64,000 nucleotides of DNA from a virus: the IMG/VR virus record IMGVR_UViG_3300042863_000390, positions 2,286 to 66,285 of that record. One strand, given 5' to 3'. The notes beneath the pieces were generated by a model, which did not search any database, was not told the origin of the DNA, and worked only from the letters and a program-made list of their open reading frames with translations. A program made the position numbers and the translations under genes. This document shows, piece after piece, positions 35,194 to 46,619 of the stretch. Every line of letters starts with the position of its first letter. Position 1 is the stretch's first letter.

Positions 35194-35237
35194 GTTACAT
35201 ATATATTATCAATAAACAATCGTGTTTAGATTGTAAG
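35194..35237 (-). promoter_or_regulatory. Class-I 44-bp promoter-like motif, copy 1
   Basis: TACA-N8-ACGA-N8-TGATAATA-N4-TGTA on minus strand, upstream of primase-helicase. Confidence 0.7.
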
Positions 35238-35302
35238 AGCTCACTATTATAGATAATTAAACCCCAACTTGTGGGGCTTAACTATTCTATAAATTTATAA
35301 TA

Positions 35303-35617
35303 TTAAAATGGTAGATCATCTTCTACTACTGCGGCCACTCTTTGTTGCGGGGCAGACTGCCCATCAGTTCTGGGTGCTGCAGCAACATTACTGCCATTCG
35401 TCCATACCACTTTAACATTTCCAAGATATGTTTTAGCTGCTTTAGATTCACGTTCTTCTTTTGATTGTTCTACTTGTATTGGTCCTTGATTTCCAAATTG
35501 ATCTACTTCATCATTCAATGTAATTGTAATGGGAAGGTACTTTCCTTTAGCCCCGTCAATTATTTTGTGTTTTGGAATTGCATTAAGATTAATGCTCGCT
35601 TTAATTATACTTGCCAT
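35303..35617 (-). CDS. Putative single-stranded DNA-binding protein
   Basis: Small beta protein with acidic DDLPF C-terminal tail. Confidence 0.7.
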   Translation of the reverse strand: MASIIKASINLNAIPKHKIIDGAKGKYLPITITLNDEVDQFGNQGPIQVEQSKEERESKAAKTYLGNVKVVWTNGSNVAAAPRTDGQSAPQQRVAAVVEDDLPF

Positions 35618-35621
35618 TTTT

Positions 35622-35981
35622 TTATAGTTTTAATTGATTATTATTAGTTAAATAGTTTACTGCTTTTAATACCCCCTCGAGATTATCACCTAAAAATCCT
35701 ATACCAGAATTACAAGACATACATAGTATTCCTCTTATCTTATTTGTTTCATGGCAATGATCAATATATGTTGATCTCTTATCAAGTATTTCTTTACCGC
35801 AACAATGGCAATTAGTACTATCCATTAATGATTGGGCTTGATCTAATGTTATTTTATAATTTCTTGCCCTGGAATATAAACACTCGCAAGTTTTACATCT
35901 TGATTTTAATCTACCCGTATCTGTTCTGTTATAGAATTCTGTTAATGGTAATTCTAATTTGCAATAGGTGCATTTTTTCAT
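35622..35981 (-). CDS. Endonuclease VII-family HNH nuclease
   Basis: CxxC pairs, IDHCH...RGILC..CN.GIG. Confidence 0.85.
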   Translation of the reverse strand: MKKCTYCKLELPLTEFYNRTDTGRLKSRCKTCECLYSRARNYKITLDQAQSLMDSTNCHCCGKEILDKRSTYIDHCHETNKIRGILCMSCNSGIGFLGDNLEGVLKAVNYLTNNNQLKL

Positions 35982-35982
35982 G

Positions 35983-36714
35983 TTATAATGTACGTGTTAA
36001 TAGGTGCTGTTGAGGGTCAAAGTCCTCGGTCTTGTAAAATAACTCGTATGCTTCGGCAGCTCTTTTGACTTTGTCTTCGCCTGCTTGTAAGAACTTGTCG
36101 GAGCAATCAAATATACCAATTTGATTTGTGCCTTTATCTATTGCAATGAAAATAAGATCATATCCGAATAGATTTTTGTAAATGTATGCTTGACTATCAT
36201 AATTATATTTTCGTGCTGAATATGCAAAGTCTGCTATGTTAGAAGTTGTTTTAAGATCTATGATAAGGCCTTCATCGTGGTTAACAATATCTGCTTTACC
36301 TTTCCACATCACGTTAAATAATTCTGTAATACCAGGCTTTTCATATTCAACATTGAAACCTCGTATTAGATCTTTACAAATGTTATTAGCTAACATTGTA
36401 TCCTTCATTAGTTCGATCTTGTCTGCTTCATGTTGCAGCAAACAGATTTCACCGCCAGATAATTCTTTATATACATTAGTATTCCTGGTTGTTGCTTTAA
36501 TAATCTTGTACTTATCTAACTTATCAGGCTCCAAGATTGCTGTATGAAAATAACCACCAATAACAAAGTTTGGATTCGGAGGCTGAGGTTCATACAACAA
36601 TAAAGGATTAGTAAGCAATGCAGATATGTTTGAATTACTTAAGAAATTTCTGCCGAATTGGCCGTAATATTCTTGATCATCTTTTAACTTCTCTAAGATT
36701 TCTTCTTTAGTCAT
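35983..36714 (-). CDS. PD-(D/E)xK exonuclease (RecE/DUF3799-like)
   Basis: G.YFHTAILEP, KGKAD, IIDLKTT, Y..QAY.Y. Confidence 0.8.
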   Translation of the reverse strand: MTKEEILEKLKDDQEYYGQFGRNFLSNSNISALLTNPLLLYEPQPPNPNFVIGGYFHTAILEPDKLDKYKIIKATTRNTNVYKELSGGEICLLQHEADKIELMKDTMLANNICKDLIRGFNVEYEKPGITELFNVMWKGKADIVNHDEGLIIDLKTTSNIADFAYSARKYNYDSQAYIYKNLFGYDLIFIAIDKGTNQIGIFDCSDKFLQAGEDKVKRAAEAYELFYKTEDFDPQQHLLTRTL

Positions 36715-36715
36715 A

Positions 36716-37276
36716 TTATAATGATTGTAATGCTACAGCAACATTGTCAGCTAGTTCATACTTCTTTTTGATTGTATCAATCGATCCTCCTTTAGCAATA
36801 AAGTCTTTAGCTTTTTCAAACGCAGGATCTGTTAATGTTAATAAAGCTTTTTTAGTTTCAGGTTCTGCTTTGCCATGATCAGGATCTTGAGTGTCATCAA
36901 TTAAGAATAGATTACCTAATGCATACTTCTTACCATAACTTGATGCTGACCCAAACTTCTGAGGCATTTGCATACCTTTTTGATCAAGATCAACACCAAC
37001 GATTGCTACTGCATGTAAAGCACCATTCCCATCGGAAATTGTTGCAGTGGACTTTAAGATGGGGAAACCTTGACTAGATTCTATTAGATCCTCTGTTACC
37101 GTAACTGATACACCAAGCCGTAATAAGAATGGTTTAGTTGCTTCAAGAATATCTTCAGCTGATCTAAAGTTATACTTACCAAATGAATTGAATCTAGACT
37201 TCTTAGATTTAAATTCTGTTTGAATTACCGCTAACTTATCATTAAGCGTTAATCCTGTTTCTTTTTTTTCTGCCAT
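36716..37276 (-). CDS. ERF-family single-strand annealing protein
   Basis: FGKYNFRSAEDI, Q..GSASSYGKKYAL..LF.IDD..DPD. Confidence 0.85.
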   Translation of the reverse strand: MAEKKETGLTLNDKLAVIQTEFKSKKSRFNSFGKYNFRSAEDILEATKPFLLRLGVSVTVTEDLIESSQGFPILKSTATISDGNGALHAVAIVGVDLDQKGMQMPQKFGSASSYGKKYALGNLFLIDDTQDPDHGKAEPETKKALLTLTDPAFEKAKDFIAKGGSIDTIKKKYELADNVAVALQSL

Positions 37277-37301
37277 ATATTTGATTTAATTGTTTAGTTT
37301 C

Positions 37302-37320
37302 TATATTAATATAATTACGT
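37302..37320 (-). promoter_or_regulatory. Candidate class-II promoter ACGTAAT-N8-TATA
   Basis: Shared motif upstream of the ERF operon. Confidence 0.45.
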
Positions 37321-37367
37321 ATTTTGTAACATATTTAGTCAATTTATGCTACAAATTTTGATTTAAC

Positions 37368-38132
37368 TTATAGGTAATCAAGGACTTGCGAGGAATCAAC
37401 ATTATCAATTAACTTCTTAATTGCTTGCTTTTTTATCTCTGAAATTCTAACATAAGCGCTTGCTCCTTCAATTCCTAAATAGTCTGCAATATCATTTGCT
37501 GAATGTTTATCACAGTCTAAACCATAACTTAATCTTAATACTTCAAACTCACGATCATCTAAATGTTTCTTCAATAAACTTGTTAGATATAAATTCATTA
37601 AACCTACATTGTAAACTTCTGATTGATCAGGAATTTGATACAACATATTATCTTCATCATCATCGTTGATTTGTTCATCAATGCTTAAGAATATTGAATT
37701 GAAAAACATTGCAACTAATGTATGATCCTTGCTGTTATCTTTTCTAATTTCATTAAGCTTATGCTCTGGAATCTTAATTGATCCTCTATTAATATCAATA
37801 GCTCTTCTAATGGATCCTTTAATTCTTTTAGATAAGAATGATTTCAATGTGCTTTCTTGATGATCGCTGTCTCTGATTGTATCCCATTCAATTTTGTCAA
37901 TTGCCTGCACTAAACCGATAGATCCATATTGAATAAGATCTGTAATGTCTAATACACCACATGCCTGCGTAGTTGTAGAAAACTTCTTTGCAATGTTCTC
38001 AACTAATGGTAAAAACCTAGCAATCAACTTATCCCTGGGGTATGATTTAAAGTCAATTGATTCGCTATCTTTATTAGTTTGTTTAATATCTTCTTTATAC
38101 CTGATATAATTTGGTATGTTGTAACTTTTCAT
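37368..38132 (-). CDS. Phage sigma70-family RNA polymerase sigma factor
   Basis: Region 2 LPLVENIAKKF...DLIQYGSIGLVQAIDK...RIKGSIRRAI; region 4 LDDREFEVLRLSYGL...IADYLG. Confidence 0.88.
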   Translation of the reverse strand: MKSYNIPNYIRYKEDIKQTNKDSESIDFKSYPRDKLIARFLPLVENIAKKFSTTTQACGVLDITDLIQYGSIGLVQAIDKIEWDTIRDSDHQESTLKSFLSKRIKGSIRRAIDINRGSIKIPEHKLNEIRKDNSKDHTLVAMFFNSIFLSIDEQINDDDEDNMLYQIPDQSEVYNVGLMNLYLTSLLKKHLDDREFEVLRLSYGLDCDKHSANDIADYLGIEGASAYVRISEIKKQAIKKLIDNVDSSQVLDYL

Positions 38133-38136
38133 AATC

Positions 38137-38442
38137 TTATTTGTTTTTAAATTGTTCTAAATATTTACCTTCAAAATGAGCCATTCTATCATCAGAATAT
38201 TGACCAACATTTTTAATTAAGAACCAAGCAAAGTTTAGCATATCTTCCTCACTATAACTTCTTTCTTGTTGCCATTTAATTATTTCTTTACAAACAGCAA
38301 TCATTAACATTCCATTTGGAGTAGTAGTTTCAAATGATTTTGTATCTGCTCTTGTTTCATAACCAAAATTTGGTGCTAAATTCTCATAAGTATTATGAAA
38401 TAAAATAGCTAATTGAACTTCTTCAAGTGTTTCTTGTTTCAT
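38137..38442 (-). CDS. MKQETLEE/KWQQERSYSEE-type small protein, copy 2
   Basis: Shares three identical blocks with the adjacent gene. Confidence 0.7.
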   Translation of the reverse strand: MKQETLEEVQLAILFHNTYENLAPNFGYETRADTKSFETTTPNGMLMIAVCKEIIKWQQERSYSEEDMLNFAWFLIKNVGQYSDDRMAHFEGKYLEQFKNK

Positions 38443-38446
38443 AATC

Positions 38447-38701
38447 TTATTTGTTTTTAAATTGTTCTAACAGTTCTTTAATAACATATTCGCTTTCATT
38501 ATCTAAATTATTAAATTCAGATAACCATTGTCCAAATTTTATAACTTCTTCCTCACTATAACTTCTTTCTTGTTGCCATTTAGTACCAAATTTTACTGCT
38601 GATATAATATCGTGTCTGCAATATTCATTTTTATTCGTTGCAGGACATCTATATATTTCTGAATATTGCTCTATAGCTTCTTCAAGTGTTTCTTGTTTCA
38701 T
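38447..38701 (-). CDS. MKQETLEE/KWQQERSYSEE-type small protein, copy 1
   Basis: Shares three identical blocks with the adjacent gene. Confidence 0.7.
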   Translation of the reverse strand: MKQETLEEAIEQYSEIYRCPATNKNEYCRHDIISAVKFGTKWQQERSYSEEEVIKFGQWLSEFNNLDNESEYVIKELLEQFKNK

Positions 38702-38898
38702 ATCTTATTTGTTTTTATATTGTTTTTCCACTCTATCCAAAATCCTATAGCTACTAATATATTCAGCCAAAAGGAGGTAATAATTTCATAAATATCTTCA
38801 TATATATTAAATGTTAAATGTACATGACCTACAACCCAGAAGGGTATTGTTAAGTTACTAGCTATCCAAGTTATAGTGAATATTACAAAACGTTTCAT
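38698..38898 (-). CDS. Small membrane protein
   Basis: 66 aa, two hydrophobic segments. Confidence 0.6.
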   Translation of the reverse strand: MKRFVIFTITWIASNLTIPFWVVGHVHLTFNIYEDIYEIITSFWLNILVAIGFWIEWKNNIKTNKI

Positions 38899-39515
38899 AA
38901 TGATCGATTTAATAATTCTTTTTCTTTTTTAAGTTCATTGCTCATGTTTCTATGTATTGTTCGTGACGTACAACCAAAATGATCAGCAAGGTTTTTAATT
39001 GTAATTTTTTTGCCGAGGTCATTCGTGTATAGCATTGCTTCGTAAATGTCAGATTCACTAACTTTCTTAGTTTTGCCAATCATCTTTCCTACTATAGATA
39101 ACTTCTCAGTGACAGTTAACTTACAGTTATCCTTAAATATAATCTTACGAGTTTTATTATAAGGAGGTTCATCAAGATCTTTTAAAGATACTTCGTACAT
39201 CATGCTTTGTAATAGCTGTTCACTTACATTGAACGTTACAAAACCATTATTCTTTTCACATATAAACCTAGCGATAGCTTCAAATGCATTCTGATCCATA
39301 TCAGGATTTAAATACCATATAACATATAAATGCCACTTTAAAGACTTATATGTTGGAATTTTAGCTTTACTCCTGAATAATTCATAACATTCGTTTGTAC
39401 CTGATTCATAGAAGTTACCCCATTCAAACTCTTCACTTGGTTTATCATTAACTGGTCCACGCCTATATATCACTCGTTTTTTATTTAAATATTCTAGGTT
39501 TCTACTATGCGACAT
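38895..39515 (-). CDS. HTH DNA-binding protein, possible replication initiator (PriCT/HTH-like)
   Basis: C-terminal HTH ITIKNLADHFGCTSRTIHR; start codon lies inside a conserved palindrome. Confidence 0.55.
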   Translation of the reverse strand: MSHSRNLEYLNKKRVIYRRGPVNDKPSEEFEWGNFYESGTNECYELFRSKAKIPTYKSLKWHLYVIWYLNPDMDQNAFEAIARFICEKNNGFVTFNVSEQLLQSMMYEVSLKDLDEPPYNKTRKIIFKDNCKLTVTEKLSIVGKMIGKTKKVSESDIYEAMLYTNDLGKKITIKNLADHFGCTSRTIHRNMSNELKKEKELLNRSL

Positions 39516-39554
39516 TAGCTTGCTATTTTATTATATTAATTAGCTAACGTCACA
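39508..39554 (-). promoter_or_regulatory. Quasi-palindromic site, copy C
   Basis: TGTGACGTTAG-N24-GCTAATGTCGCA on minus strand. Confidence 0.75.
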
Positions 39555-39574
39555 TTTATTCACATTAGCATTTT

Positions 39575-39772
39575 TTATTTATTATCTTGTTCTATTAACT
39601 GGAATATATAACTCCACACTTTAACTTCACGTTTATGTGATTCAATCATATCTTTTACTGTATCGCTGCTTATGCCCCAATTGACATACTTATCCATATC
39701 TTCACGTAATAATACCTGAAGTTTAGATCCAATTTTGTTACTCGCTAATTCATTTAATTCTTCTCTTGTCAT
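39575..39772 (-). CDS. Hypothetical protein
   Basis: 65-aa ORF. Confidence 0.55.
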   Translation of the reverse strand: MTREELNELASNKIGSKLQVLLREDMDKYVNWGISSDTVKDMIESHKREVKVWSYIFQLIEQDNK

Positions 39773-40248
39773 AATATTGCAGGTCTTGTTATTATAGATT
39801 CGTTTGCATTTTTTACATTAACTTTTTCAGCTTCATAATAATTCCAGTATGCTTCAACACTATTGCCAGGAACTTTGTATTGATCGGGCATGCATTGTGG
39901 CATTGGAGTTAATTCAGATTTAGTTACATTAGTTGGTACTTTACTTAGTACGCCACTACATTTTAATATTGTTAAATGTTTTTTGCCGTAACGTCTAGTA
40001 TATTCTTCACCAAGCGCCATCATATGATCATATAACCATTTGTAATTAGACTTTGATTCACGTGCCCATATGGCAGAAGGATGGTTTTTGTGAGTAACTT
40101 TATAAGGTACGTCAGCATCAGGACCGTCAGATATTACATGAGCGGTACATAATAATTGTGCGGATTCTAAGATCATCTTTACTACATGCTTGTTATACAT
40201 GTACTTAGCGGCTTTTGTAGGATCTGTAGACAGATAAAATATATTCAT
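39769..40248 (-). CDS. Pyrimidine-dimer DNA glycosylase (DenV/endonuclease V-like)
   Basis: MNIFYL..DP, KHVVKMILESAQLLCTAH, HKNHPSAIW, EY..RYGK.H. Confidence 0.8.
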   Translation of the reverse strand: MNIFYLSTDPTKAAKYMYNKHVVKMILESAQLLCTAHVISDGPDADVPYKVTHKNHPSAIWARESKSNYKWLYDHMMALGEEYTRRYGKKHLTILKCSGVLSKVPTNVTKSELTPMPQCMPDQYKVPGNSVEAYWNYYEAEKVNVKNANESIITRPAIL

Positions 40249-40263
40249 AATTTGATTTGATTG

Positions 40264-40307
40264 GTTACATTAATATTATCATTCTTTAATCGTGTTTAGA
40301 CTGTAAG
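40264..40307 (-). promoter_or_regulatory. Class-I 44-bp promoter-like motif, copy 2
   Basis: Same consensus and spacing; upstream of DenV-like/HTH/sigma operon. Confidence 0.7.
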
Positions 40308-40431
40308 CAGCTAATCTTTTATAATGCTTATGTAAACGGTTGTCTCTACAATAAGAGCATGCTCCATTGTTTCTGCATGTTTTATCAAACACTCTTGATT
40401 TTCTGTACGCTTGTTTTACTGTTCTGCTCAT
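40279..40431 (-). CDS. Small basic Cys-rich protein (50 aa, not in ORF track)
   Basis: MSRTVKQAYRKSRVFDKTCRNNGACSYCRDNRLHKHYKRLAAYSLNTIKE, translated by hand. Confidence 0.6.
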   Translation of the reverse strand: MSRTVKQAYRKSRVFDKTCRNNGACSYCRDNRLHKHYKRLAAYSLNTIKE

Positions 40432-40445
40432 AATCTTTAATTTAG

Positions 40446-40511
40446 TAGTCAGGCAAGGACTCGAACCTCCTCCGCTTTATCAGTGCGGTGCTTCCATTCA
40501 GCTACCTGACT
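40446..40511 (-). tRNA. Truncated tRNA-like element (Ile-GAT-like loop)
   Basis: Acceptor AGTCAGG/CCTGACT+A, T-loop GGTTCGAGTCC, loop CTGATAA; only 66 nt, variable loop almost absent. Confidence 0.55.
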
Positions 40512-40578
40512 TATAGTTAATTACCACCACTAAGCGTGTAACTGGGTGGATTACTGAACTCACGCCTTATTAACTATA
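40512..40578 (-). ncRNA. Predicted pseudoknotted small RNA (RNA-C)
   Basis: Outer stem TATAGTTAAT/ATTAACTATA, inner stem AGGCGTG/CACGCTT, loop CCACC complementary to downstream GGTGG. Confidence 0.5.
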
Positions 40579-40584
40579 TATATT

Positions 40585-40675
40585 TGGAACTAAAAGGGGA
40601 ATCGAACCCCAAAACCCGTCGGTTGTGACAATGCCCGGAGACTGAAACAGATCCATTTAGCCCAGCACTTAGTTC
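40585..40675 (-). ncRNA. tRNA-like element with non-canonical central part
   Basis: Acceptor GAACTAA/TTAGTTC, T-arm GGGG-TTCGATT-CCCC, 3' end TTCCA; no canonical anticodon arm. Confidence 0.5.
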
Positions 40676-40676
40676 T

Positions 40677-40774
40677 TGTTAATCCGAGGACCGGTTATTT
40701 TCTTTATCCCATATTTCGGTTGCAACCAGCTAGCTAAGCTTGGTATGACTCCACGCAACCCCGAGTGATTAACA
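40677..40774 (-). ncRNA. Predicted multi-stem small RNA (RNA-B)
   Basis: Closing stem TGTTAATC..CGGGG/CCTCG-GATTAACA; inner GCTGGTT/AACCGGT and TGG/CCA hairpins. Confidence 0.45.
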
Positions 40775-40782
40775 TTTTGAAC

Positions 40783-40873
40783 AGTTCTTATTTAACGAAC
40801 TCACTGCTCCCTGAGTCGAACACGATTGCCAGCTGCTCGAGCACTACATGCATGAACAACCGTGTATAGCAAC
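40783..40873 (-). ncRNA. Predicted structured small RNA (RNA-A)
   Basis: ACACGGTTG/CAATCGTGT stem, ACTCA/TGAGT hairpin whose loop GAGCA can pair with TGCTC, AGTTC/GAACT hairpin. Confidence 0.45.
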
Positions 40874-41100
40874 TACAGTTTCTTAAATCTGTATTGAGCT
40901 AATACGTATTTGTTTAAGAATTTACCTTTAGAAGGGGCTTCTCTTAAACCATTCATTACATGGTTAGGTACGTTTAAATATTCGTACGCTTTACCGCTAA
41001 TGAATAGAACAATTAATTTTTCAACACTTGGATAGTAAGCGACTTCAGAAATTGCGCTACTGTCAACCGTTAGTGATTCCACTAAGTTTACATTTGTCAT
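40873..41100 (-). CDS. KTSC domain protein
   Basis: VDSSAISEVAY...LIVLF.SG..YEY..VP........APSKGKF.N. Confidence 0.85.
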   Translation of the reverse strand: MTNVNLVESLTVDSSAISEVAYYPSVEKLIVLFISGKAYEYLNVPNHVMNGLREAPSKGKFLNKYVLAQYRFKKL

Positions 41101-41110
41101 AGTTATTATA

Positions 41111-41443
41111 TTAGATAGTTAAAAAATATTCTTCATCAAATTTATCTTTGAAACCTACATGCTTGATACCGTATACTAATATATCAAATTGATCAGAGCT
41201 AATAGGTATGCATTCTTGTTCAAATACAGAACATAAATTTTCTACAGTAGCCACAACATTACTTAATAATTTATAATTAGTTTCAAGTTCAGCAACAATG
41301 GTAGGCTCAATCAAATCATGATAGCTACCGCTGCTTTCTGTTAATTGTAATAATGTATAACCACGTAGGTTTTTTAGATAATCCATTACTTCTTGGGCTG
41401 AATAAGGATTGTTAAGCAGCCCGATATTGATTGTAAAAGTCAT
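41111..41443 (-). CDS. Hypothetical early protein
   Basis: 110-aa ORF; INIGL, EPT.V, QECI motifs. Confidence 0.6.
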   Translation of the reverse strand: MTFTINIGLLNNPYSAQEVMDYLKNLRGYTLLQLTESSGSYHDLIEPTIVAELETNYKLLSNVVATVENLCSVFEQECIPISSDQFDILVYGIKHVGFKDKFDEEYFLTI

Positions 41444-41455
41444 ATTATTTATTTA

Positions 41456-41707
41456 TTATTGGTTATATATATCGTAATAATCACTCATTGTATTTATTAA
41501 TTCTCTTCCGTATGCAGTATGAAAACCATAACTATGTGTATAATTATTTATTGGTGCATTTTCTAATAACAAATACAACATATCAAATTCATTCTGATCA
41601 AACTTTTTACTCGCTCTTGTTATAGCTTTAGCCAAGGCACTACAACTGTGTCGAGGCGTTTGATTAAGGGTATTTTCTATATAATCTTTTACTTGCTTAG
41701 CCTTCAT
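41456..41707 (-). CDS. Hypothetical early protein
   Basis: 83-aa ORF. Confidence 0.6.
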   Translation of the reverse strand: MKAKQVKDYIENTLNQTPRHSCSALAKAITRASKKFDQNEFDMLYLLLENAPINNYTHSYGFHTAYGRELINTMSDYYDIYNQ

Positions 41708-42062
41708 TTTCTTCAGGATTAAGTTTAAAATAGTCAGTTAATTCGCTAACGAATGATCTTGTAAATTGGTATGCATCGAATGAAGTATTTAACTCAAGAG
41801 TAAAACTATTGCCATATGATCCGCATAATTCAGGCTCACTCATTATAAATTCTTCAAAGTCAAAGTTATCTAATAAATCTTCAACAGAATCAGTAATATA
41901 TTTAGGCGTCAATCCAGAAGGTTTTAATTCTGATACTTCCATTAATACATTAGTACGTAGTGCACTTAATAAGTTAACAACATCATCTTTAGAAAAAATA
42001 CTTGGGTATGCATCTACAGTTTTTGTAATTTCCTGATCGAACAGGTTGTTTATATTTTCCAT
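41697..42062 (-). CDS. Hypothetical early protein
   Basis: Acidic 121-aa ORF directly after promoter copy 3. Confidence 0.6.
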   Translation of the reverse strand: MENINNLFDQEITKTVDAYPSIFSKDDVVNLLSALRTNVLMEVSELKPSGLTPKYITDSVEDLLDNFDFEEFIMSEPELCGSYGNSFTLELNTSFDAYQFTRSFVSELTDYFKLNPEENEG

Positions 42063-42079
42063 TTTATTATATTTTATTG

Positions 42080-42123
42080 GTTACATTTATATTATCATTT
42101 ATTGATCGTATTCAGACTGTAAG
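42080..42123 (-). promoter_or_regulatory. Class-I 44-bp promoter-like motif, copy 3
   Basis: Same consensus and spacing. Confidence 0.7.
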
Positions 42124-42320
42124 ATTCCATTTTCTTCAACAACTTCGCAGAATAAGGTGTATAGCAAACTTTCTATTTGCTGCAATCTATGTAATTGATG
42201 TACGGTTAAAAGCGATCTTTCTATTCTAAAATCCGTATTTAGGTTTTCTTCAATTGTTAATGTTCCTTCAAAGACTGCTAGCTTAATTAAGTCTAGTTCT
42301 TTATCGCTTAGTACTCTCAT
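42099..42320 (-). CDS. Hypothetical early protein
   Basis: 73-aa ORF. Confidence 0.5.
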   Translation of the reverse strand: MRVLSDKELDLIKLAVFEGTLTIEENLNTDFRIERSLLTVHQLHRLQQIESLLYTLFCEVVEENGILQSEYDQ

Positions 42321-42468
42321 ATATTTTTATTTCTAATGCATTGTTAAACACTCGATCGTATGCTTCTGCCATTTTATTATTATCGGCATAGTGTACAGTC
42401 TTTACTATTTCGCGCATCCACACTTCAAATGCTAATGCTTCTTGATGAGCTAATCTTTCTTTTGTCAT
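42301..42468 (-). CDS. Hypothetical early protein (55 aa, not in ORF track)
   Basis: MTKERLAHQEALAFEVWMREIVK... fills the gap in the operon. Confidence 0.5.
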   Translation of the reverse strand: MTKERLAHQEALAFEVWMREIVKTVHYADNNKMAEAYDRVFNNALEIKIYESTKR

Positions 42469-42470
42469 AA

Positions 42471-42713
42471 TTAATCTGTTAAAACTATTCTTAATGATCC
42501 ATCTTCGTTTTCGCCGGTAAAATTACCAGTTGATTCATTGTATACTAATACTATATCGAAAGCTTTAGCTACTTTAACGGCTGCAATACCAATCTCGCCT
42601 TGTAATGTTAATTCGCCGCGTCTAGGATAATACTGTATACTATAGAATACTTCAAACTCTACTTGCTCATTTACATATCTTAATTTTTCTAATAACCACA
42701 TTCTTCTATCCAT
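42471..42713 (-). CDS. Hypothetical early protein
   Basis: 80-aa ORF after promoter copy 4. Confidence 0.6.
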   Translation of the reverse strand: MDRRMWLLEKLRYVNEQVEFEVFYSIQYYPRRGELTLQGEIGIAAVKVAKAFDIVLVYNESTGNFTGENEDGSLRIVLTD

Positions 42714-42732
42714 CTTGTTATATTTTTTATTT

Positions 42733-42776
42733 GTTACATATATATTATCAATTGTTAATCGTATTTTGATTGTAGG
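42733..42776 (-). promoter_or_regulatory. Class-I 44-bp promoter-like motif, copy 4
   Basis: Same consensus and spacing. Confidence 0.7.
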
Positions 42777-42995
42777 CTACTCAATTACCTTCATAAAATC
42801 ACCATTTTTATTATATAATATGGTTAATTCAAACTTATGGTCTAGGTGACATATCATTTCGTTGATGTTAGCAAATGATAAGGCCATTGAGAATTGATCA
42901 GGAGCGGCGGTTAAACCTTCCGCTTGAGCAAGCGTGTATAGCAAACCGACGTCGAGTTGGTTACTATTACGCATTTTAATATACTCTGCTTTCAT
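42777..42995 (-). CDS. Hypothetical early protein
   Basis: 72-aa ORF. Confidence 0.6.
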   Translation of the reverse strand: MKAEYIKMRNSNQLDVGLLYTLAQAEGLTAAPDQFSMALSFANINEMICHLDHKFELTILYNKNGDFMKVIE

Positions 42996-43186
42996 TATTT
43001 TTGTTTTAAGGTTAATGCTTTAATCTTTTCGATTGTTTCAGATACAACCATGTCTACATAATCCGCAGTCATCAAAGCATTTTTACCTTGTGCTTCAACT
43101 TCTTTAATATCTTTCTTCCATTCATTCCTAATTGCATTCAATCCTTCGATTACTAAATAACTTTCAAATCCGTTTAATTTTTTCAT
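42995..43186 (-). CDS. Hypothetical early protein
   Basis: 63-aa ORF. Confidence 0.6.
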   Translation of the reverse strand: MKKLNGFESYLVIEGLNAIRNEWKKDIKEVEAQGKNALMTADYVDMVVSETIEKIKALTLKQK

Positions 43187-43187
43187 A

Positions 43188-43436
43188 CTAATATTTATCT
43201 TTAATTTCTGTTAATGTTAAGTGATAGTGATTCCAATATCCGCTTCTACTGTGTGCTTTTGCTTTTGCACCAAAGGATGATTTCATTTTAGTCTTGATTT
43301 GTTTATAGTCATTACTATTAAAACTTTTACACAAGCCATCAATATTCACCGCATTTATACGGTTCGCTCTATTACGTGCTTTCTTTTCTTCAAGATATTG
43401 ACACGCTTCTTTCATATTGTTTGCTATTGTTATCAT
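43188..43436 (-). CDS. Hypothetical early protein
   Basis: 82-aa basic ORF. Confidence 0.6.
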   Translation of the reverse strand: MITIANNMKEACQYLEEKKARNRANRINAVNIDGLCKSFNSNDYKQIKTKMKSSFGAKAKAHSRSGYWNHYHLTLTEIKDKY

Positions 43437-43437
43437 A

Positions 43438-43620
43438 TTATTTTATTAAAGTTAAACCTAATTCATTTGCCACATAATTCACATGCTTTGTAGTTGTTCT
43501 TGACCACCAACCCAATACTTTAAGGGTATCGCCATCTCGTCTTGCAACGATTGTAGAGTAACTCCATACGTCATTACCAACCATTCTTAAATTGTCTTTG
43601 TATCTATTGAACTTTCTCAT
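43438..43620 (-). CDS. Hypothetical early protein
   Basis: 60 aa, SYSTIVA...WSRTTTKHVN motif. Confidence 0.6.
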   Translation of the reverse strand: MRKFNRYKDNLRMVGNDVWSYSTIVARRDGDTLKVLGWWSRTTTKHVNYVANELGLTLIK

Positions 43621-43621
43621 A

Positions 43622-43804
43622 TTACTTTTTGATTATATAAGTTAAACCTTTAAAATTAAACCACTCACTTGTGCCGTCGGATTCTTTATTAGCATCGTAG
43701 ATAAAACCAAAACTTGGGGGTAGATCGCCGATTAAGTAAGGTGTGTATAGCAAACCGTTTAATAAGATTTGATTGTACTTTAGGAATTTAATTGAATTTG
43801 TCAT
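43622..43804 (-). CDS. Hypothetical early protein
   Basis: 60-aa ORF after promoter copy 5. Confidence 0.6.
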   Translation of the reverse strand: MTNSIKFLKYNQILLNGLLYTPYLIGDLPPSFGFIYDANKESDGTSEWFNFKGLTYIIKK

Positions 43805-43819
43805 AGTTAATTTGTTTTA

Positions 43820-43863
43820 GTTACATTTATATTATCAATTTTGAATCGTATTTATTTTGTAAA
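43820..43863 (-). promoter_or_regulatory. Class-I 44-bp promoter-like motif, copy 5
   Basis: Same consensus and spacing. Confidence 0.7.
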
Positions 43864-43870
43864 TACTTTG

Positions 43871-43942
43871 TAGTTAGGGTAGGAATCGAACCTACATTGC
43901 GGGCGCCTGATCGGCCTGAGTTTACCATTACTCCTCCTAACT
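43871..43942 (-). tRNA. tRNA-like element with defective anticodon arm
   Basis: Acceptor AGTTAGG/CCTAACT+A, D-arm GAGT-AATGGTAA-ACTC, T-arm GTAGG-TTCGATT-CCTAC; positions 27-43 do not form a canonical stem-loop. Confidence 0.6.
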
Positions 43943-43949
43943 CCTATTA

Positions 43950-44177
43950 TTAATCTTTGTACTTAACATCCGCCATGAATCTTTCAATTATACCGGCTTC
44001 AAAAGCTTCTTGTTCTTTATAGTATTTTGCACGTACTATTCTATCTAATAACCATTCAACAATCACTTCATAATCCGTGTGATGTTTAGTCATACCGTTT
44101 TCTATAATCGCTTTATAATATGTGCGCTCAGGAAAGTACGGGTTTTTATACTCTATAATTTCATAATCTCCTATCAT
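43950..44177 (-). CDS. Hypothetical early protein
   Basis: 75-aa ORF. Confidence 0.55.
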   Translation of the reverse strand: MIGDYEIIEYKNPYFPERTYYKAIIENGMTKHHTDYEVIVEWLLDRIVRAKYYKEQEAFEAGIIERFMADVKYKD

Positions 44178-44179
44178 AA

Positions 44180-44347
44180 TTAATCGTTATATATTTCAAA
44201 TTCAACATCATCAAAGTCGTTAGCGTCCAACACTATTTCTTCACCACAATACATTTCTTCCGCTAATAATCTTGCATCGACTTCATCATCGGCTTCAACT
44301 TCAATTATCTTACTTAAATACTCGGTTATTTTTACTTGATATTTCAT
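44180..44347 (-). CDS. DpnD/PcfM-like small acidic protein (55 aa, not in ORF track)
   Basis: MKYQVKITEYLSKIIEVEADDEVDARLLAEEMYCGEEIVLDANDFDDVEF. Confidence 0.65.
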   Translation of the reverse strand: MKYQVKITEYLSKIIEVEADDEVDARLLAEEMYCGEEIVLDANDFDDVEFEIYND

Positions 44348-44363
44348 ACTTTACTTTTTAATA

Positions 44364-44480
44364 TTAATCTTCATTTTCTCCATCCCAATCGGTAAACTCG
44401 CAATGTTCTAAACAATCACCACACAACTCATCATATATATGGTGTCTACTCGCGCCACAACAATCACTATATTCTTCCAT
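44364..44480 (-). CDS. Small zinc-finger protein (38 aa, not in ORF track)
   Basis: SDCCGA...CGDCLEHC. Confidence 0.6.
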   Translation of the reverse strand: MEEYSDCCGASRHHIYDELCGDCLEHCEFTDWDGENED

Positions 44481-44484
44481 ACTT

Positions 44485-44784
44485 TTATTTATTTAAATTA
44501 AACAATCTTTCACACTTTCTATTACAGTACTCAAAGTGAGCCCATATCGCCGCATTAATTTTACCAACTTCGTCGTTTCTCGCATCTAAATACGGTTCAA
44601 TCGAGTGATAAAAGTCGGTTAACTCTTCGTCAATATAATTAAAATCTCGTTTAAACATATCAAGTTCATCACCTTGCATGTAATTTAACCCAATTATATC
44701 TTCATCTTCTTTAATGATTAAAATATATCTATCATCGCCATCACACCACACTATTTCTCTACTTTCTACTACTTTATAATTCAT
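44485..44784 (-). CDS. Hypothetical early protein
   Basis: 99-aa ORF. Confidence 0.6.
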   Translation of the reverse strand: MNYKVVESREIVWCDGDDRYILIIKEDEDIIGLNYMQGDELDMFKRDFNYIDEELTDFYHSIEPYLDARNDEVGKINAAIWAHFEYCNRKCERLFNLNK

Positions 44785-44808
44785 ATTGTATTTTTTTACT
44801 TATTAATA

Positions 44809-44907
44809 TTAGTTTCTTAGGGCCATAGAGGCGTATTTCGCTTGAATTAAGAACTCTTTTTTTACTTTTAATAATACCACTCTAAAGGCACTTGAATAAC
44901 GTCTCAT
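44809..44907 (-). CDS. Micro-ORF (32 aa)
   Basis: MRRYSSAFRVVLLKVKKEFLIQAKYASMALRN directly after promoter copy 6. Confidence 0.4.
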   Translation of the reverse strand: MRRYSSAFRVVLLKVKKEFLIQAKYASMALRN

Positions 44908-44931
44908 ATTTACTTGTTTTAGTTTGTTTTT

Positions 44932-44975
44932 GTTACACTTATATTATCATTTCACAATCGTATTTTTATTGTAAA
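44932..44975 (-). promoter_or_regulatory. Class-I 44-bp promoter-like motif, copy 6
   Basis: Same consensus and spacing. Confidence 0.7.
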
Positions 44976-45080
44976 GAGGTTGAACTCTATTTGCTTACTT
45001 TTAACTAAGAGCAGGTATTACAGAGTATCCCTTTGTTTGCAAGCCTTTTCAACCATTTTACCATCGATTATTGTTATTTT

Positions 45081-45124
45081 GTTACATATATATTATCAAA
45101 TTGAGTTCGTGTTGATATTGTAAG
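45081..45124 (-). promoter_or_regulatory. Class-I 44-bp promoter-like motif, copy 7
   Basis: Same consensus and spacing. Confidence 0.7.
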
Positions 45125-45203
45125 CACTTTTTGAGTGAAAATAGAAAATAGTTAACTATAGTGTAGGACGGAGTCTACTCTTTCGACAGTGTTTCAGTGC
45201 CAG

Positions 45204-45247
45204 ACTACACATATATTATCAAATTACCGTCGTAATGTTATTGTAAG
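45204..45247 (-). promoter_or_regulatory. Class-I 44-bp promoter-like motif, copy 8
   Basis: Same consensus and spacing. Confidence 0.7.
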
Positions 45248-45314
45248 GGGTTTTTAGGTGGATGCTATACGCGTTGCTATACACTTTGTGTAAGGTTCCG
45301 ATGGAACACTTTGT

Positions 45315-45371
45315 AAAAGTGTGACATTAGCTCATTAAGTTAATAATATAGTAGGCTAACGTCGCACTTTT
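45315..45371 (+). promoter_or_regulatory. Quasi-palindromic site, copy A
   Basis: AAAAGTGTGACATTAG-N24-GCTAACGTCGCACTTTT. Confidence 0.75.
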
Positions 45372-45373
45372 TA

Positions 45374-45574
45374 TTATAGGTTTTCTATCTCTTTTTTAAC
45401 TTCGTTCCAATTTATATCCTGACCGTAGCATTCGTATTTACTGCATCCGCTTTTTTCTTTAATTATCTCAGTAACCACTATCAATGCGCATTGTTTAGCA
45501 TCTAACATTAAATAATGTTTTGATTCATAATTAAACTTATTTACTAACTCTTCTGCTTTTTCTTTTGGTGTCAT
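45374..45574 (-). CDS. MTPKEKA-type small protein
   Basis: MTPKEKAEELV.KF...AKQCALI.V.EI...W.EVKKEIENL. Confidence 0.65.
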   Translation of the reverse strand: MTPKEKAEELVNKFNYESKHYLMLDAKQCALIVVTEIIKEKSGCSKYECYGQDINWNEVKKEIENL

Positions 45575-45586
45575 AATCTTATTTGT

Positions 45587-45630
45587 TTTACATTATTATT
45601 ATCATTATTCACTCGTATTTAGATTGTAGA
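45587..45630 (-). promoter_or_regulatory. Class-I 44-bp promoter-like motif, copy 9
   Basis: Same consensus and spacing. Confidence 0.7.
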
Positions 45631-45636
45631 AGAGAC

Positions 45637-45987
45637 TTATTCAGCCTCAACTACTTCTAAAACCTCAACCGTAGCCAAATGTCTTACATTACTTGGCATA
45701 TCGGTAGATTGCGACCAATATTCACGTTTAATCCAACATGGCATAAGGTTTAACTTTGGCAACATAACTTTTAGAACCTCGTCATGATTGTAAGTTATAC
45801 GTTGATTCTTGTTATTCACGAATGTGATTACTTGATTACGACCCAACCAAGACTTTCTTACTACAAAGTTAGCTCTTTCGATTGGTGGATAGATTAAAGC
45901 CAAGTCTTCAGGAGACAGTTTAGCAATGGCTTCAGCGATTAATTCTTTAGATGATTTTACAACTTCGTTTGTTACTTGATTTTTCAT
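45637..45987 (-). CDS. Hypothetical protein, first gene of the minus-strand arm
   Basis: 116-aa ORF after two tandem promoter motifs. Confidence 0.65.
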   Translation of the reverse strand: MKNQVTNEVVKSSKELIAEAIAKLSPEDLALIYPPIERANFVVRKSWLGRNQVITFVNNKNQRITYNHDEVLKVMLPKLNLMPCWIKREYWSQSTDMPSNVRHLATVEVLEVVEAE

Positions 45988-46015
45988 ATTATTATATTTA
46001 ATTTGTTATTACTTA

Positions 46016-46059
46016 GTTACACTTATATTATCAATTAGACTTCGTATTCTTATTGTAAG
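46016..46059 (-). promoter_or_regulatory. Class-I 44-bp promoter-like motif, copy 10
   Basis: Same consensus and spacing. Confidence 0.7.
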
Positions 46060-46086
46060 AACTTCTTAACCATTTGGTGCTTGTTG

Positions 46087-46130
46087 CTTACATATATATT
46101 ATCAAATACCATTCGTACTCAGACTGTAGG
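46087..46130 (-). promoter_or_regulatory. Class-I 44-bp promoter-like motif, copy 11
   Basis: Same consensus and spacing. Confidence 0.7.
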
Positions 46131-46133
46131 GAA

Positions 46134-46222
46134 TGCTATACGCAAATGCTATACATTTGCTATACGCTTCGCGTGTTACCACGCTCCACGTATCGGTCTC
46201 CATACGCATCACGTATCGGTTC
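46134..46222 (+). repeat. TGCTATAC x3 and CACGTATCGGT x2 short direct repeats
   Basis: Seen at 46134, 46147, 46158; CACGTATCGGT twice within 46187-46222. Confidence 0.8.
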
Positions 46223-46423
46223 ATTATAATAAACACACAGCAATACATTATAACAAACAAACGGTGCTCACAGCAGCTCCAGTGTTCTCCTAGCAATAGC
46301 CAGATCATACGCCATGCGTACCGGAAAAGGCAAAACATTTCGAAAAGAACCAAAAAAAATACGGGGGGTGGGTAAAATCAAAGTCGTTTTCTTTCTGGGC
46401 GGTGCAGGCCAAAACAGGTGTAT

Positions 46424-46528
46424 AACCCCTTGCTTTATTATTTGTAATGTACTTTTATAAAATCAACCCCTTACTTTATTATTTGTGATATAATTTTTTA
46501 ATTTACCCCTTTATTATATATTTGTAAT
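46424..46528 (+). repeat. Three iteron-like repeats ACCCCTT...TTATTAT..TTGTRAT at about 40-bp period
   Basis: Copies at 46424, 46465, 46505. Confidence 0.75.
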
Positions 46529-46565
46529 ACAAATTTAAAAGAACGTGTACATATTATTATTATAT

Positions 46566-46619
46566 AAAAGTGTGACGTTAGGTAGTTATATTAAATAAAT
46601 AGCAGGCTAATGTCGCACT
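46566..46619 (+). promoter_or_regulatory. Quasi-palindromic site, copy B
   Basis: AAAAGTGTGACGTTAG-N24-GCTAATGTCGCACT. Confidence 0.75.

What the first reader, a model, noticed from the sequence alone, without database searches (positions are those of the whole stretch)
38895..46619. Three quasi-palindromes with an invariant 24-nt AT spacer, one containing the start codon of an HTH/Rep-like gene
Seen: TGTGACRTTAG-N24-GCTAAYGTCGCA at 45320-45366 (+), 46571-46617 (+) and 39508-39554 (-). The spacer is exactly 24 nt, AT-rich and ends TAGYAR; the TGTGAC versus GTCGCA asymmetry is kept in all copies. In copy C the right arm supplies ATG-TCG-CAT, the start of the 206-aa protein with a C-terminal HTH. 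Established: plasmid and phage initiators often bind inverted half-sites around a melting region and autoregulate through a site at their own gene start. Inference: the 206-aa protein (reminiscent of the PriCT+HTH half of primase-type Reps) binds these sites, and copies A and B are origins loading the primase-helicase in a phage with no visible DNA polymerase.
Basis: partly seen in the sequence, partly recalled or inferred. Interest (0 to 1): 0.78.

Follow-up and report, generated by a model that had tools for sequence, protein, structure and literature searches.

The report
Conserved palindromic control sites in phage
Three 47-base near-palindromes in an uncultured lake phage are a real, family-wide DNA signal that sits at the boundaries of the phage's gene blocks and travels with a small DNA-binding protein and a phage sigma factor, so it is most likely a gene-control site rather than a proven replication origin.

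Summary
The three sites are exact at the stated coordinates, none is expected by chance, and they are the only copies in the 66-kb genome. The element is family-wide: 77 of 80 relatives of the 206-aa gene carry it over the start codon, and 32 of 32 related records hold 1-4 copies against 0 in a reversed control. Copies fall in three syntenic classes: at the ATG of the 206-aa/sigma operon, at the strand switch before the structural genes, and inside the leftward early genes.

The arms show no compensatory covariation, so they read as double-stranded protein half-sites (tGTGAC-RWT-AG), not as a hairpin. None of 78 distinct sites is a perfect palindrome.

The 206-aa protein has a confident C-terminal helix-turn-helix. 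Its N-domain has no clear fold match; resemblance to primase helix bundles is at noise level. Two related phages lack the gene, the sigma factor and the sites together.

Best reading: an operator-type control site, probably bound by the 206-aa protein (0.42). An origin or a phage-specific promoter is not excluded. Other first readers of this scan noted the same element in related genomes.

The parts
39508..39554 (-). Site C: quasi-palindrome whose gene-proximal arm (GCTAATGTCGCA) contains the ATG of the 206-aa gene. It heads the operon 206 aa / small ORFs / sigma / Erf / exonuclease.
   Evidence: The same arrangement is found in 77 of 80 relatives and in a more distant clade, L139-L142.
45320..45366 (+). 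Site A: lies 7 nt after the stop of the leftward 66-aa early gene and just before a class-1 promoter-like element. Its internal asymmetry points rightward, opposite to the surrounding genes.
   Evidence: (28 A-type sites in relatives).
46571..46617 (+). Site B: at the strand switch, about 55 nt before the first rightward gene (ATG 46673) of the block that runs into tail, terminase, portal and capsid genes.
   Evidence: 15 B-type sites, 9-159 nt before the first + ORF.
38895..39515 (-). 206-aa protein: N-domain without a clear known fold plus a C-terminal three-helix HTH with a nearly invariant recognition helix (RTI-Y/H-RNM). Candidate binder of the sites.
37368..38132 (-). Phage sigma-70-family factor (254 aa), in the same operon as the 206-aa gene.
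   Evidence: TIGR02937, 55.9 bits against a cut-off of 42.9. Found after the 206-aa gene in 77 of 80 loci.
46424..46540 (+). Context: three 37-40-nt repeats upstream of B; the last carries TATATTTG, a Bacteroidota-type -7 box. B would then lie in the leader of a rightward transcript.
   Evidence: family D7; TAnnTTTG on the + strand within 200 nt upstream of B-type sites in 8 of 17, against 1 of 17 on the other strand.
45204..45233 (-). Context: one of 11 class-1 promoter-like elements (ACGA-N8-TGATAATATA-NN-TGTAAC), all on the minus strand. This one lies immediately downstream (leftward) of site A.

Best explanation
The three elements are double-stranded DNA binding sites of an operator type. 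Each has two inverted half-sites (tGTGAC-RWT-AG-S-nnn-TTA) about 33 bp apart around an AT-rich centre. They belong to a phage-encoded transcription-control module made of the 206-aa HTH protein and the adjacent sigma factor. The most likely binder is the 206-aa protein, as a dimer or higher oligomer. Site C, over its own start codon, would give autoregulation of the 206-aa/sigma/recombination operon. Site B, between a rightward host-type promoter-like box and the first rightward gene, would gate the block that runs into the structural genes. Site A, right after the first leftward early genes, would mark or block the boundary to the next unit. SHOWN: the sites are real, non-random, conserved in sequence, position and orientation, do not covary as a hairpin, and co-occur with the gene pair. 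INFERRED: which protein binds, and that the effect is on transcription.
For: 1. Reality and conservation: (32 of 32 related records, 0 in the reversed-pattern control).
2. Synteny in 33 genomes: class C at the gene start, class B at the strand switch, class A inside the leftward early genes.
3. Shared internal asymmetry. A-R-T-A-R-n-a-G-G-CT lies next to one arm; TA is invariant in 31 of 31 C and 47 of 47 A/B sites; GG precedes CT in 42-45 of 47 A/B sites. By this asymmetry C points into its gene and all A/B sites point towards the rightward block.
4. No pairing selection. 76.4% of cells are paired against 77.1 +/- 0.7 in shuffles (442 of 500 shuffles at least as high), and double changes are fewer than in shuffles. 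The base next to AG on the left arm is C or G while its partner on the right is fixed G. Both arms therefore fit one consensus half-site, as protein sites do.
5. The gene's HTH recognition helix is nearly invariant across 34 homologues of 58-95% identity, matching the invariant GAC/AG/TA bases of the sites.
6. Co-occurrence. The sigma gene follows the 206-aa gene in 77 of 80 loci. MW202828.1 (terminase 65% identical) and elemoA (45%) lack the 206-aa gene (elemoA has only a weak 60-residue hit), the sigma factor, this motif and the class-1 motif. The sigma search worked in 3 of 3 family control genomes.
7. No class-1 element lies on the + strand, so B and A are the only family-specific conserved signals in front of the rightward block.
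Against: No binding data exist. Half-sites 33 bp apart are unusual for a simple HTH dimer. The consistent orientation of A-type sites and the fixed place of the ATG would be explained more directly by a promoter with its transcription start in the arm. None of 78 sites is a perfect palindrome, and a plain symmetric operator does not predict that. The N-domain gives weak echoes of primase helix bundles and ColE2 Rep, and the gene heads a block that includes the primase-helicase, so an initiator role remains possible. Co-absence in only two outgroup phages cannot separate the 206-aa protein from the sigma factor as the reader of the sites.
Confidence: 0.42

Rival explanations
1. The element is itself a phage-specific promoter, read by the phage sigma factor with or without the 206-aa protein. 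Transcription would start in the arm next to A-R-T-A-R-n-GGCT. At C this gives a leaderless or near-leaderless mRNA that begins at the ATG. A and B would be tandem rightward promoters for the structural block, with A transcribing antisense through the first leftward early genes.
For: The orientation of the asymmetry fits the downstream operon for C and B, and A is co-oriented with B. With the A of the ATG as +1, the invariant TA sits at -10/-9 and GTGACA (5 of 6 letters of TTGACA, a consensus I recall) lies 18-21 bp upstream. The ATG has GGCT, not the A-rich leader seen at other genes of this phage. In A/B sites the same arm carries ATG in only 8 of 47, while the opposite arm carries it on the other strand in 30 of 47; the 8 give only short ORFs of 3-45 codons. 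No class-1 promoter exists on the + strand.
Against: The spacing is long for sigma-70-type promoters and the -11 and -7 positions are not conserved. The symmetry of the far arm is unexplained. In the HNH-insertion lineage the 206-aa gene sits 1.1 kb downstream with a new start. One metatranscriptome contig covers the whole of C and ends at 39553, not at the ATG; this is contig data and only a weak hint. The class-1 elements look more like the sigma factor's natural targets (-10-like TGATAATATA, 15-17-nt leaders).
Confidence: 0.22
2. The sites are replication origins, or origin-type initiator sites. The 206-aa protein binds the arms, the AT-rich spacer melts, and the primase-helicase is loaded. 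C would double as an autoregulatory site.
For: Inverted sites flank a 20-24-nt AT-rich spacer. The genome has no family A or B DNA polymerase, so it must recruit host enzymes. The gene heads the block that holds Erf, exonuclease, an SSB-like protein and the primase-helicase. N-domain matches at Z 4.1-4.6 include the pRN1, RepB' and NrS-1 primase helix bundles and ColE2 Rep. Known initiators with a site in or beside their own gene plus a distant second origin exist (lambda O, SPP1 G38P; recalled).
Against: Those Z values are below the tool's stated noise level (typical best Z is 7-8 for unmatched models). There is no Rep, PriCT or initiator hit in Pfam, PHROGs, NCBIfam, PDB sequences or the Atlas. 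There are 2-4 sites per genome, always at transcription-unit boundaries with conserved orientation. The tightest gene partner is a sigma factor. ElemoA has a homologous primase-helicase (E 7.5e-77) without the gene or the sites. GC skew turns at 28 kb and 46 kb together with gene orientation, so it cannot decide.
Confidence: 0.17
3. The element works as RNA or single-stranded DNA: a long irregular hairpin that acts as a terminator or attenuator, an RNase III-type processing site whose cut in the internal loop frees an mRNA starting at AUG, or an antitermination signal.
For: In this genome the sense strands fold well (A -22.1/-19.6, B -21.4, C -18.0 kcal/mol; z -4.3 to -5.9). A-type sites are flanked by AAAAG...CTTTT and lie right after a stop codon and before a promoter-like element. 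All 78 sites keep at least one non-Watson-Crick position in the three bases that hold the ATG. There is a weak strand bias in mismatches (35 against 16 sites).
Against: No covariation: pairing is no better than in shuffles. The mean MFE of C-type sites is only -12.8 kcal/mol and shows no strand preference (17 against 14). Loops of 20 nt or more and short U-runs are unlike intrinsic terminators. The loop asymmetry of A-type sites lies on the strand opposite to the local genes. No Rfam family matches.
Confidence: 0.09

Closest known systems
Palindromic operators of phage repressors and regulators that also control their own gene (lambda/P22 CI-Cro operators; recalled, not tested)
   Same: Inverted half-sites in several copies per genome, one at the regulator's own gene, next to promoters at a divergent early region. 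The arms fit a consensus without covarying.
   Different: The half-sites are about 33 bp apart with a 20-24-bp AT-rich centre and extra conserved inner bases (TTA ... ARTAR-n-GG). The whole site is 44-47 bp and the start codon lies inside an arm. The protein's N-domain has no recognised fold, and there is no sequence homology to CI or Cro.
Phage phi29 p4 early-to-late switch (recalled)
   Same: A small phage DNA-binding protein with inverted-repeat sites placed between divergent early and late units. It represses one set and activates the other.
   Different: No homology was tested or seen. Here a phage sigma factor is part of the module, and one site overlaps the regulator's own start codon.
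Initiator-bound phage origins (lambda O/ori-lambda, SPP1 G38P oriL/oriR; recalled)
   Same: Binding sites in or at the initiator gene plus distant copies, with AT-rich DNA beside them. The phage depends on a helicase or primase-helicase.
   Different: There are no iterons. The sites sit at operon heads with fixed orientation. There is no detectable homology to initiators, and the partner gene is a sigma factor.
Phage sigma-factor or activator-dependent middle/late promoters (T4 MotA boxes, SPO1 gp28 and gp33/34; recalled)
   Same: A family-specific motif in front of delayed gene blocks, encoded together with a phage sigma factor.
   Different: Palindromic architecture and only 2-4 copies. A second motif of 11 copies (class 1) is the better candidate for the sigma factor's promoters.

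Membership tests
HTH regulator with palindromic operator | Inverted half-sites conserved as a consensus, not by pairing | tested here: met
   half-site tGTGAC-RWT-AG; paired cells 76.4% against 77.1% in shuffles.
HTH regulator with palindromic operator | A gene for a DNA-binding protein is linked to the sites and co-occurs with them | tested here: met
   HTH shown.
HTH regulator with palindromic operator | The protein binds the sites and changes transcription | not testable with these tools
   No protein-DNA modelling or assay was available.
Primase-type Rep / PriCT-containing initiator | PriCT or Rep domain recognisable by profile | tested here: not met
   Pfam at E <= 0.01 gives only HTH_11 and SpoIIID, both below cut-off. 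PHROGs gives none. NCBIfam gives only a weak IS256 HTH hit. The PDB profile search gives nothing at E < 0.1. The Atlas neighbours carry HTH names only.
Primase-type Rep / PriCT-containing initiator | Fold of the helix-bundle domain | tested here: inconclusive
   pRN1 primase 3m1m Z 4.6 (76 aligned), RepB' 3h20 Z 4.6 (66), pRN1 HBD 6gt7 Z 4.3, ColE2 Rep 3vw4 Z 4.2, NrS-1 6a9w Z 4.1. All lie within the tool's noise range.
Initiator-type replication origin | Initiator sites beside an AT-rich unwinding element | tested here: inconclusive
   The spacer is AT-rich, but the whole genome is 29-38% GC and the spacer holds conserved bases.
Initiator-type replication origin | Replication starts there | not testable with these tools
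   Only Logan contigs were on offer, with no read depth along the genome.
Sigma-70-type promoter | -35 and -10 hexamers 16-18 bp apart, with the start 6-8 nt after the -10 | tested here: inconclusive
   GTGACA and ARTARn are 18-21 bp apart and the -11 and -7 positions are not conserved. No transcript-start data.
Intrinsic terminator / structured RNA | Stem kept by compensatory changes; short loop; U-tract | tested here: not met
   (no covariation); loops of 20-24 nt; U-runs of 3-5; no Rfam match.

The most novel reading that the evidence does not exclude
Lake Flavobacteriia phages of this family may carry a self-contained two-part transcription system: a sigma factor reading the 11 class-1 promoters, and the 206-aa protein reading the 2-4 bipartite palindromes. 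In this reading the palindrome is both operator and start point. Transcription begins in the arm, so the regulator's own mRNA is leaderless in a host group that lacks Shine-Dalgarno use, and the rule that no site is a perfect palindrome sets direction. Alternatively the same sites double as transcription-primed origins, as in T4.
Probability: 0.2. Interest if true: 0.65.

Novelty: new variant of a known kind. Interest (0 to 1): 0.45.

Why it matters
Gene timing in phages of Bacteroidota is almost unstudied, and their hosts use unusual promoters and no Shine-Dalgarno pairing. This element gives a precise, testable cis-signal of 44-47 bp with 2-4 copies and fixed positions. It comes with two candidate trans-factors, conserved across at least about 90 uncultured lake-phage genomes. 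If the 206-aa protein binds it, a virus-only protein family of several hundred members with no annotation gains a function and a defined DNA target. If it proves to be a promoter or an origin, it would mark the switch point of the infection cycle and could help annotate this phage group.

Tried and rejected
What led nowhere, or was considered and dropped:

- RNA evidence. One search found only Logan contigs; the RNA runs share 5-7% of the words. laid four runs. No starts or ends can be read from contigs. One 549-nt contig ends at 39553 and another reads through C. Neither is used as evidence.
- Complex of the 206-aa protein with the sigma factor. The tool returned no verdict (score 0.01). This says nothing either way.
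- Whole-protein Foldseek against the PDB: no match at E <= 0.001.
- BFVD search with the N-domain: one unnamed viral homologue only.
- Testing whether site and HTH change together in distant homologues. The representative search found 363 homologues (alignment). P0009 gave four new contigs that still carry the motif, too few to test co-change.
- Isolated half-sites and right halves are at chance level.
- TTTG-N18-22-TAnnTTTG across the window is at chance level.
- My first class-1 pattern had the wrong spacing and found 0. It was corrected.
- ElemoA 'replication protein' gp19 is not related to the 206-aa protein (probability 0.4%). ElemoA gp57 shows a weak 60-column similarity (probability 47%), which I did not follow. 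No comparable inverted repeat lies in elemoA's divergent region.
- Rows dropped before counts. Three regex hits (L109:2711, L112:2746, L134:2843) were removed by me because they lack the inner conserved bases. Sites closer than 20 nt to a locus end were dropped, and identical sites were counted once (33 to 31 C sites, 51 to 47 A/B sites). Four A/B sites could not be classed as A or B.
- Literature. One search (search listing only) found nothing on such phage promoters. One search, searching four 10-mers of the motif, returned 137 papers; the 10 listed are all unrelated by title. No paper was read beyond these listings, and supplements were not asked for. The claim that the motif is undescribed rests on these two searches only.
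- Consensus sequences and systems used for comparison are recalled, not tested: the Bacteroidota promoter TTTG/TAnnTTTG, the E. coli -35/-10 hexamers, the SSB tail DDDIPF, and the behaviour of lambda, phi29, SPP1, T4, T7 and RSF1010.
This call repeats it with that field added.

Full report
**1. Observation**

The pattern TGTGACRTTAG-N24-GCTAAYGTCGCA occurs without mismatch at 39508-39554 (-), 45320-45366 (+) and 46571-46617 (+). No match occurred in 100 shuffles. The window is bases 2286-66285 of a 66,285-bp IMG/VR phage record with terminal repeats, and these are the only three places in it. Single arms or single right halves do not occur elsewhere above chance. Copy C contains the ATG of ORF 38895-39515 (-), 206 aa.

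**2. Genome setting**

- Minus-strand genes run from about 46.0 kb down to 28 kb. First come many small ORFs. Then come the 206-aa gene, three small ORFs, a sigma-70-family factor (254 aa; TIGR02937 55.9 bits against a cut-off of 42.9), Erf, a PD-(D/E)XK exonuclease, a Toprim/DnaB-type primase-helicase, ThyA, MazG and a ribonucleotide reductase.
- Plus-strand genes start at 46.67 kb with small proteins and run into tail fibre, GroEL, tail, terminase, portal and virion proteins.
- No family A or B DNA polymerase is found.
- The terminase is 65% identical to that of MW202828.1 and 45% identical to those of the Flavobacterium 'elemo' phages. Cellulophaga, Tenacibaculum and Maribacter phages also match. 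The DNA is found in lake-water runs. A Flavobacteriia host is therefore likely.
- Genes have A-rich leaders without a Shine-Dalgarno sequence. This fits what the abstract of PMC7797042 says of Bacteroidetes (seen only as the start of the abstract in the listing).

**3. The element is family-wide**

- 104 IMG/VR stretches encode a relative of the 206-aa protein, and the best 80 (58-94% identity) were kept.
- In 77 of the 80, the motif overlaps the start codon. GCTAATGTC is almost invariant, and a TA lies 9-10 nt before the ATG in 62 of 62 distinct sequences.
- The three exceptions (L029-L031) carry a roughly 1.1-kb insert with an HNH-endonuclease gene between the site and the gene. The site keeps its ATG, now followed by a 7-codon ORF, and the 206-aa homologue has a new start.
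- A degenerate pattern was found in 32 of 32 related records, at 1-4 places each, with 0 hits for the pattern read backwards.
- A more distant clade (L139-L142) still has it at the ATG and at the strand switch.
- Two first-reader notes of this scan describe the same element in other genomes (e1-5325505, e1-6245868). I did not check which genomes those are.

**4. Anatomy**

I oriented regions of 33 genomes alike. This gave 31 distinct C sites and 47 distinct A/B sites.

- The common form is (AAAA)-n-tGTGAC-RWT-AG-S-nnn-TTA-[AT-rich]-A-R-T-A-R-n-a-G-G-CT-AWY-GTCRC-a-c-(TTTT).
- The distance from GAC to GTC is 39-42 bp.
- Both halves fit one half-site. The side with ARTAR-n-GG is distinct, which gives each site a direction.
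- By that direction, C points into its gene and all A/B sites point to the right.
- Of the A/B sites, 28 lie inside the leftward early genes (A-type) and 15 lie at the strand switch (B-type), 9-159 nt before the first rightward ORF. Four could not be classed.
- Some genomes have two A-type copies 135-170 bp apart.

**5. DNA site or hairpin?**

- On an alignment of 76 sites, the 15-pair stem is paired in 76.4% of cells, against 77.1 +/- 0.7 when the 3' letters are shuffled among sites (442 of 500 shuffles at least as high). Changes on both sides are fewer than in shuffles.
- Five pairs never vary and so say nothing.
- In this genome the sense strands fold well. Across relatives, C-type sites average only -12.8 kcal/mol with no strand preference. 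B-type sites prefer the + strand in 11 of 15. A-type sites fold equally on both strands.
- No Rfam family matches.

I conclude that the arms are kept as sequence-specific half-sites in duplex DNA. An RNA role is unlikely but not excluded.

**6. An unexplained rule**

The three bases between GAC and AG are never the same in the two arms, in 0 of 78 sites.

- In C sites the ATG-side arm is ATT in 30 of 31, and the other arm is never ATT.
- In A/B sites the far arm is ATT in 30 of 47, and the ARTAR-side arm is GTT (23), AAT (13) or ATT (8).
- Two readings are open. Either the site needs one strong arm and one weaker arm, or an ATG is avoided at the place where C has its start codon.
- The second reading would mean that this place lies at or near a transcript's 5' end. 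The 8 A/B sites that do have an ATG there open only ORFs of 3-45 codons.

**7. The protein**

- Thirty-four homologues align over 206 positions. The helix KIT-x-x-x-LA...C-S/T-x-RTI-Y/H-RNM...ELKKEKELLN is nearly invariant.
- The model is confident (pLDDT 91.9).
- Residues about 148-206 match the HTH domains of TetR-type and other regulators (Z 5-6, 40-58 residues aligned).
- The N-domain, modelled alone (pLDDT 89.5), has a best Z of 5.4. Among rows at Z 4.1-4.6 are the pRN1, RepB' and NrS-1 primase helix bundles and ColE2 Rep. The tool puts such values inside its noise range.
- Pfam, PHROGs, NCBIfam, PDB sequences, BFVD and the ESM Atlas give nothing beyond HTH labels.
- The family is virus-only with several hundred members.

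**8. Which factor goes with which signal?**

- A second motif, ACGA-N8-TGATAATATA-NN-TGTAAC, occurs 11 times, all on the minus strand between 35.2 and 46.1 kb (noted earlier as e1-6181371). Where checked it lies 15-17 nt before start codons.
- Nothing like it lies on the plus strand.
- Upstream of B lie three repeats with a Bacteroidota-type -7 box. TAnnTTTG is found on the + strand within 200 nt upstream of B-type sites in 8 of 17 genomes, against 1 of 17 on the other strand.
- The sigma gene follows the 206-aa gene in 77 of 80 loci and often abuts it. The other three loci end within 1.6 kb of the gene.
- MW202828.1 and elemoA lack the sigma factor (controls positive in 3 of 3 family genomes), lack the 206-aa gene (elemoA has a weak 60-residue hit in gp57), and lack both motifs.
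- ElemoA nevertheless has a homologous primase-helicase (33% identity, E 7.5e-77) next to an unrelated 'replication protein'.
- The simplest pairing is sigma factor with the class-1 elements and 206-aa protein with the palindromes. That pairing is an inference.

**9. Verdict**

- The sites are best read as operator-type duplex sites of a phage transcription-control module, probably bound by the 206-aa protein. That gives autoregulation at C, gating of the rightward block at B, and a boundary in the leftward early unit at A. Confidence 0.42.
- A phage-specific promoter with a start in the arm (0.22) explains the orientation and the embedded ATG better, but fits promoter geometry poorly.
- An origin (0.17) is not excluded, but has no specific support.
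- An RNA element (0.09) is disfavoured by the lack of covariation.
- About 0.10 remains for something else, such as a recombination or module-boundary signal.

The element is a new variant of a known kind, of moderate interest.

Noticed in passing
L121:1100-2960 (same contig as L031); also L029, L030: In one lineage a cassette of about 1.1 kb with an HNH-endonuclease gene sits between site C and the 206-aa gene. The site keeps ATG plus a 7-codon ORF (MSHLLYT), and the 206-aa homologue has an 11-codon N-terminal extension that overlaps the end of the HNH gene.
   Followed up: partly
window 35194-46116, minus strand: Eleven copies of ACGA-N8-TGATAATATA-NN-TGTAAC, with CTTACA further upstream, lie 15-17 nt before start codons where checked. 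None is on the plus strand. The core is absent from the sigma-less relatives MW202828.1 and elemoA. They are candidate promoters of the phage sigma factor.
   Followed up: partly
window 46320-46420 and the matching places in L098, L100, L101, L105, L118, L127, L128: A conserved GC-rich stretch (…GAAAAGGCAAAAC…GGGGGGTGGG…TCGTTTTC…) lies in the divergent region between the leftward promoters and site B. It has no good ORF and no Rfam match at E <= 1.
   Followed up: no
window 46424-46540 (+): Three tandem 37-40-nt repeats (AACCCCTTnCTTTATTATTTGTnAT…), the last with TATATTTG, a Bacteroidota-type -7 box. Similar single or double boxes lie upstream of B-type sites in relatives.
   Followed up: partly
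window 45262-45290, 46135-46170, and upstream of most A-type sites in relatives: The decamer GCTATACRC/GYGTATAGC clusters between A-type sites and the next class-1 element. Other notes of the scan treat it as an oriented signal (e1-6181377, e1-6188479).
   Followed up: no
window 35303-35617 (-): A 104-aa ORF ends in ...VVEDDLPF, like the acidic C-terminal tip of bacterial SSB (recalled: DDDIPF). It is a possible SSB-like adaptor to host replication proteins in a phage without its own polymerase.
   Followed up: no
window 40446-40511 (-) and 43871-43942 (-): Two tRNA matches in Rfam (45.9 and 40.1 bits). ARAGORN reports only the second, with an undetermined anticodon.
   Followed up: no
NC_055852.1 20173-21039 (elemoA gp57; L148:14674-15540): The first sizeable rightward gene after elemoA's strand switch shows a weak 60-column similarity to the N-domain of the 206-aa family (hhalign probability 47%, E 2e-4).
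   Followed up: partly
window 39005-39553: A 549-nt metatranscriptome contig (run X24) covers the 5' part of the 206-aa gene and the whole of site C, and ends 1 nt inside the site's outer edge. It is contig data and no proof of a transcript end.
   Followed up: no
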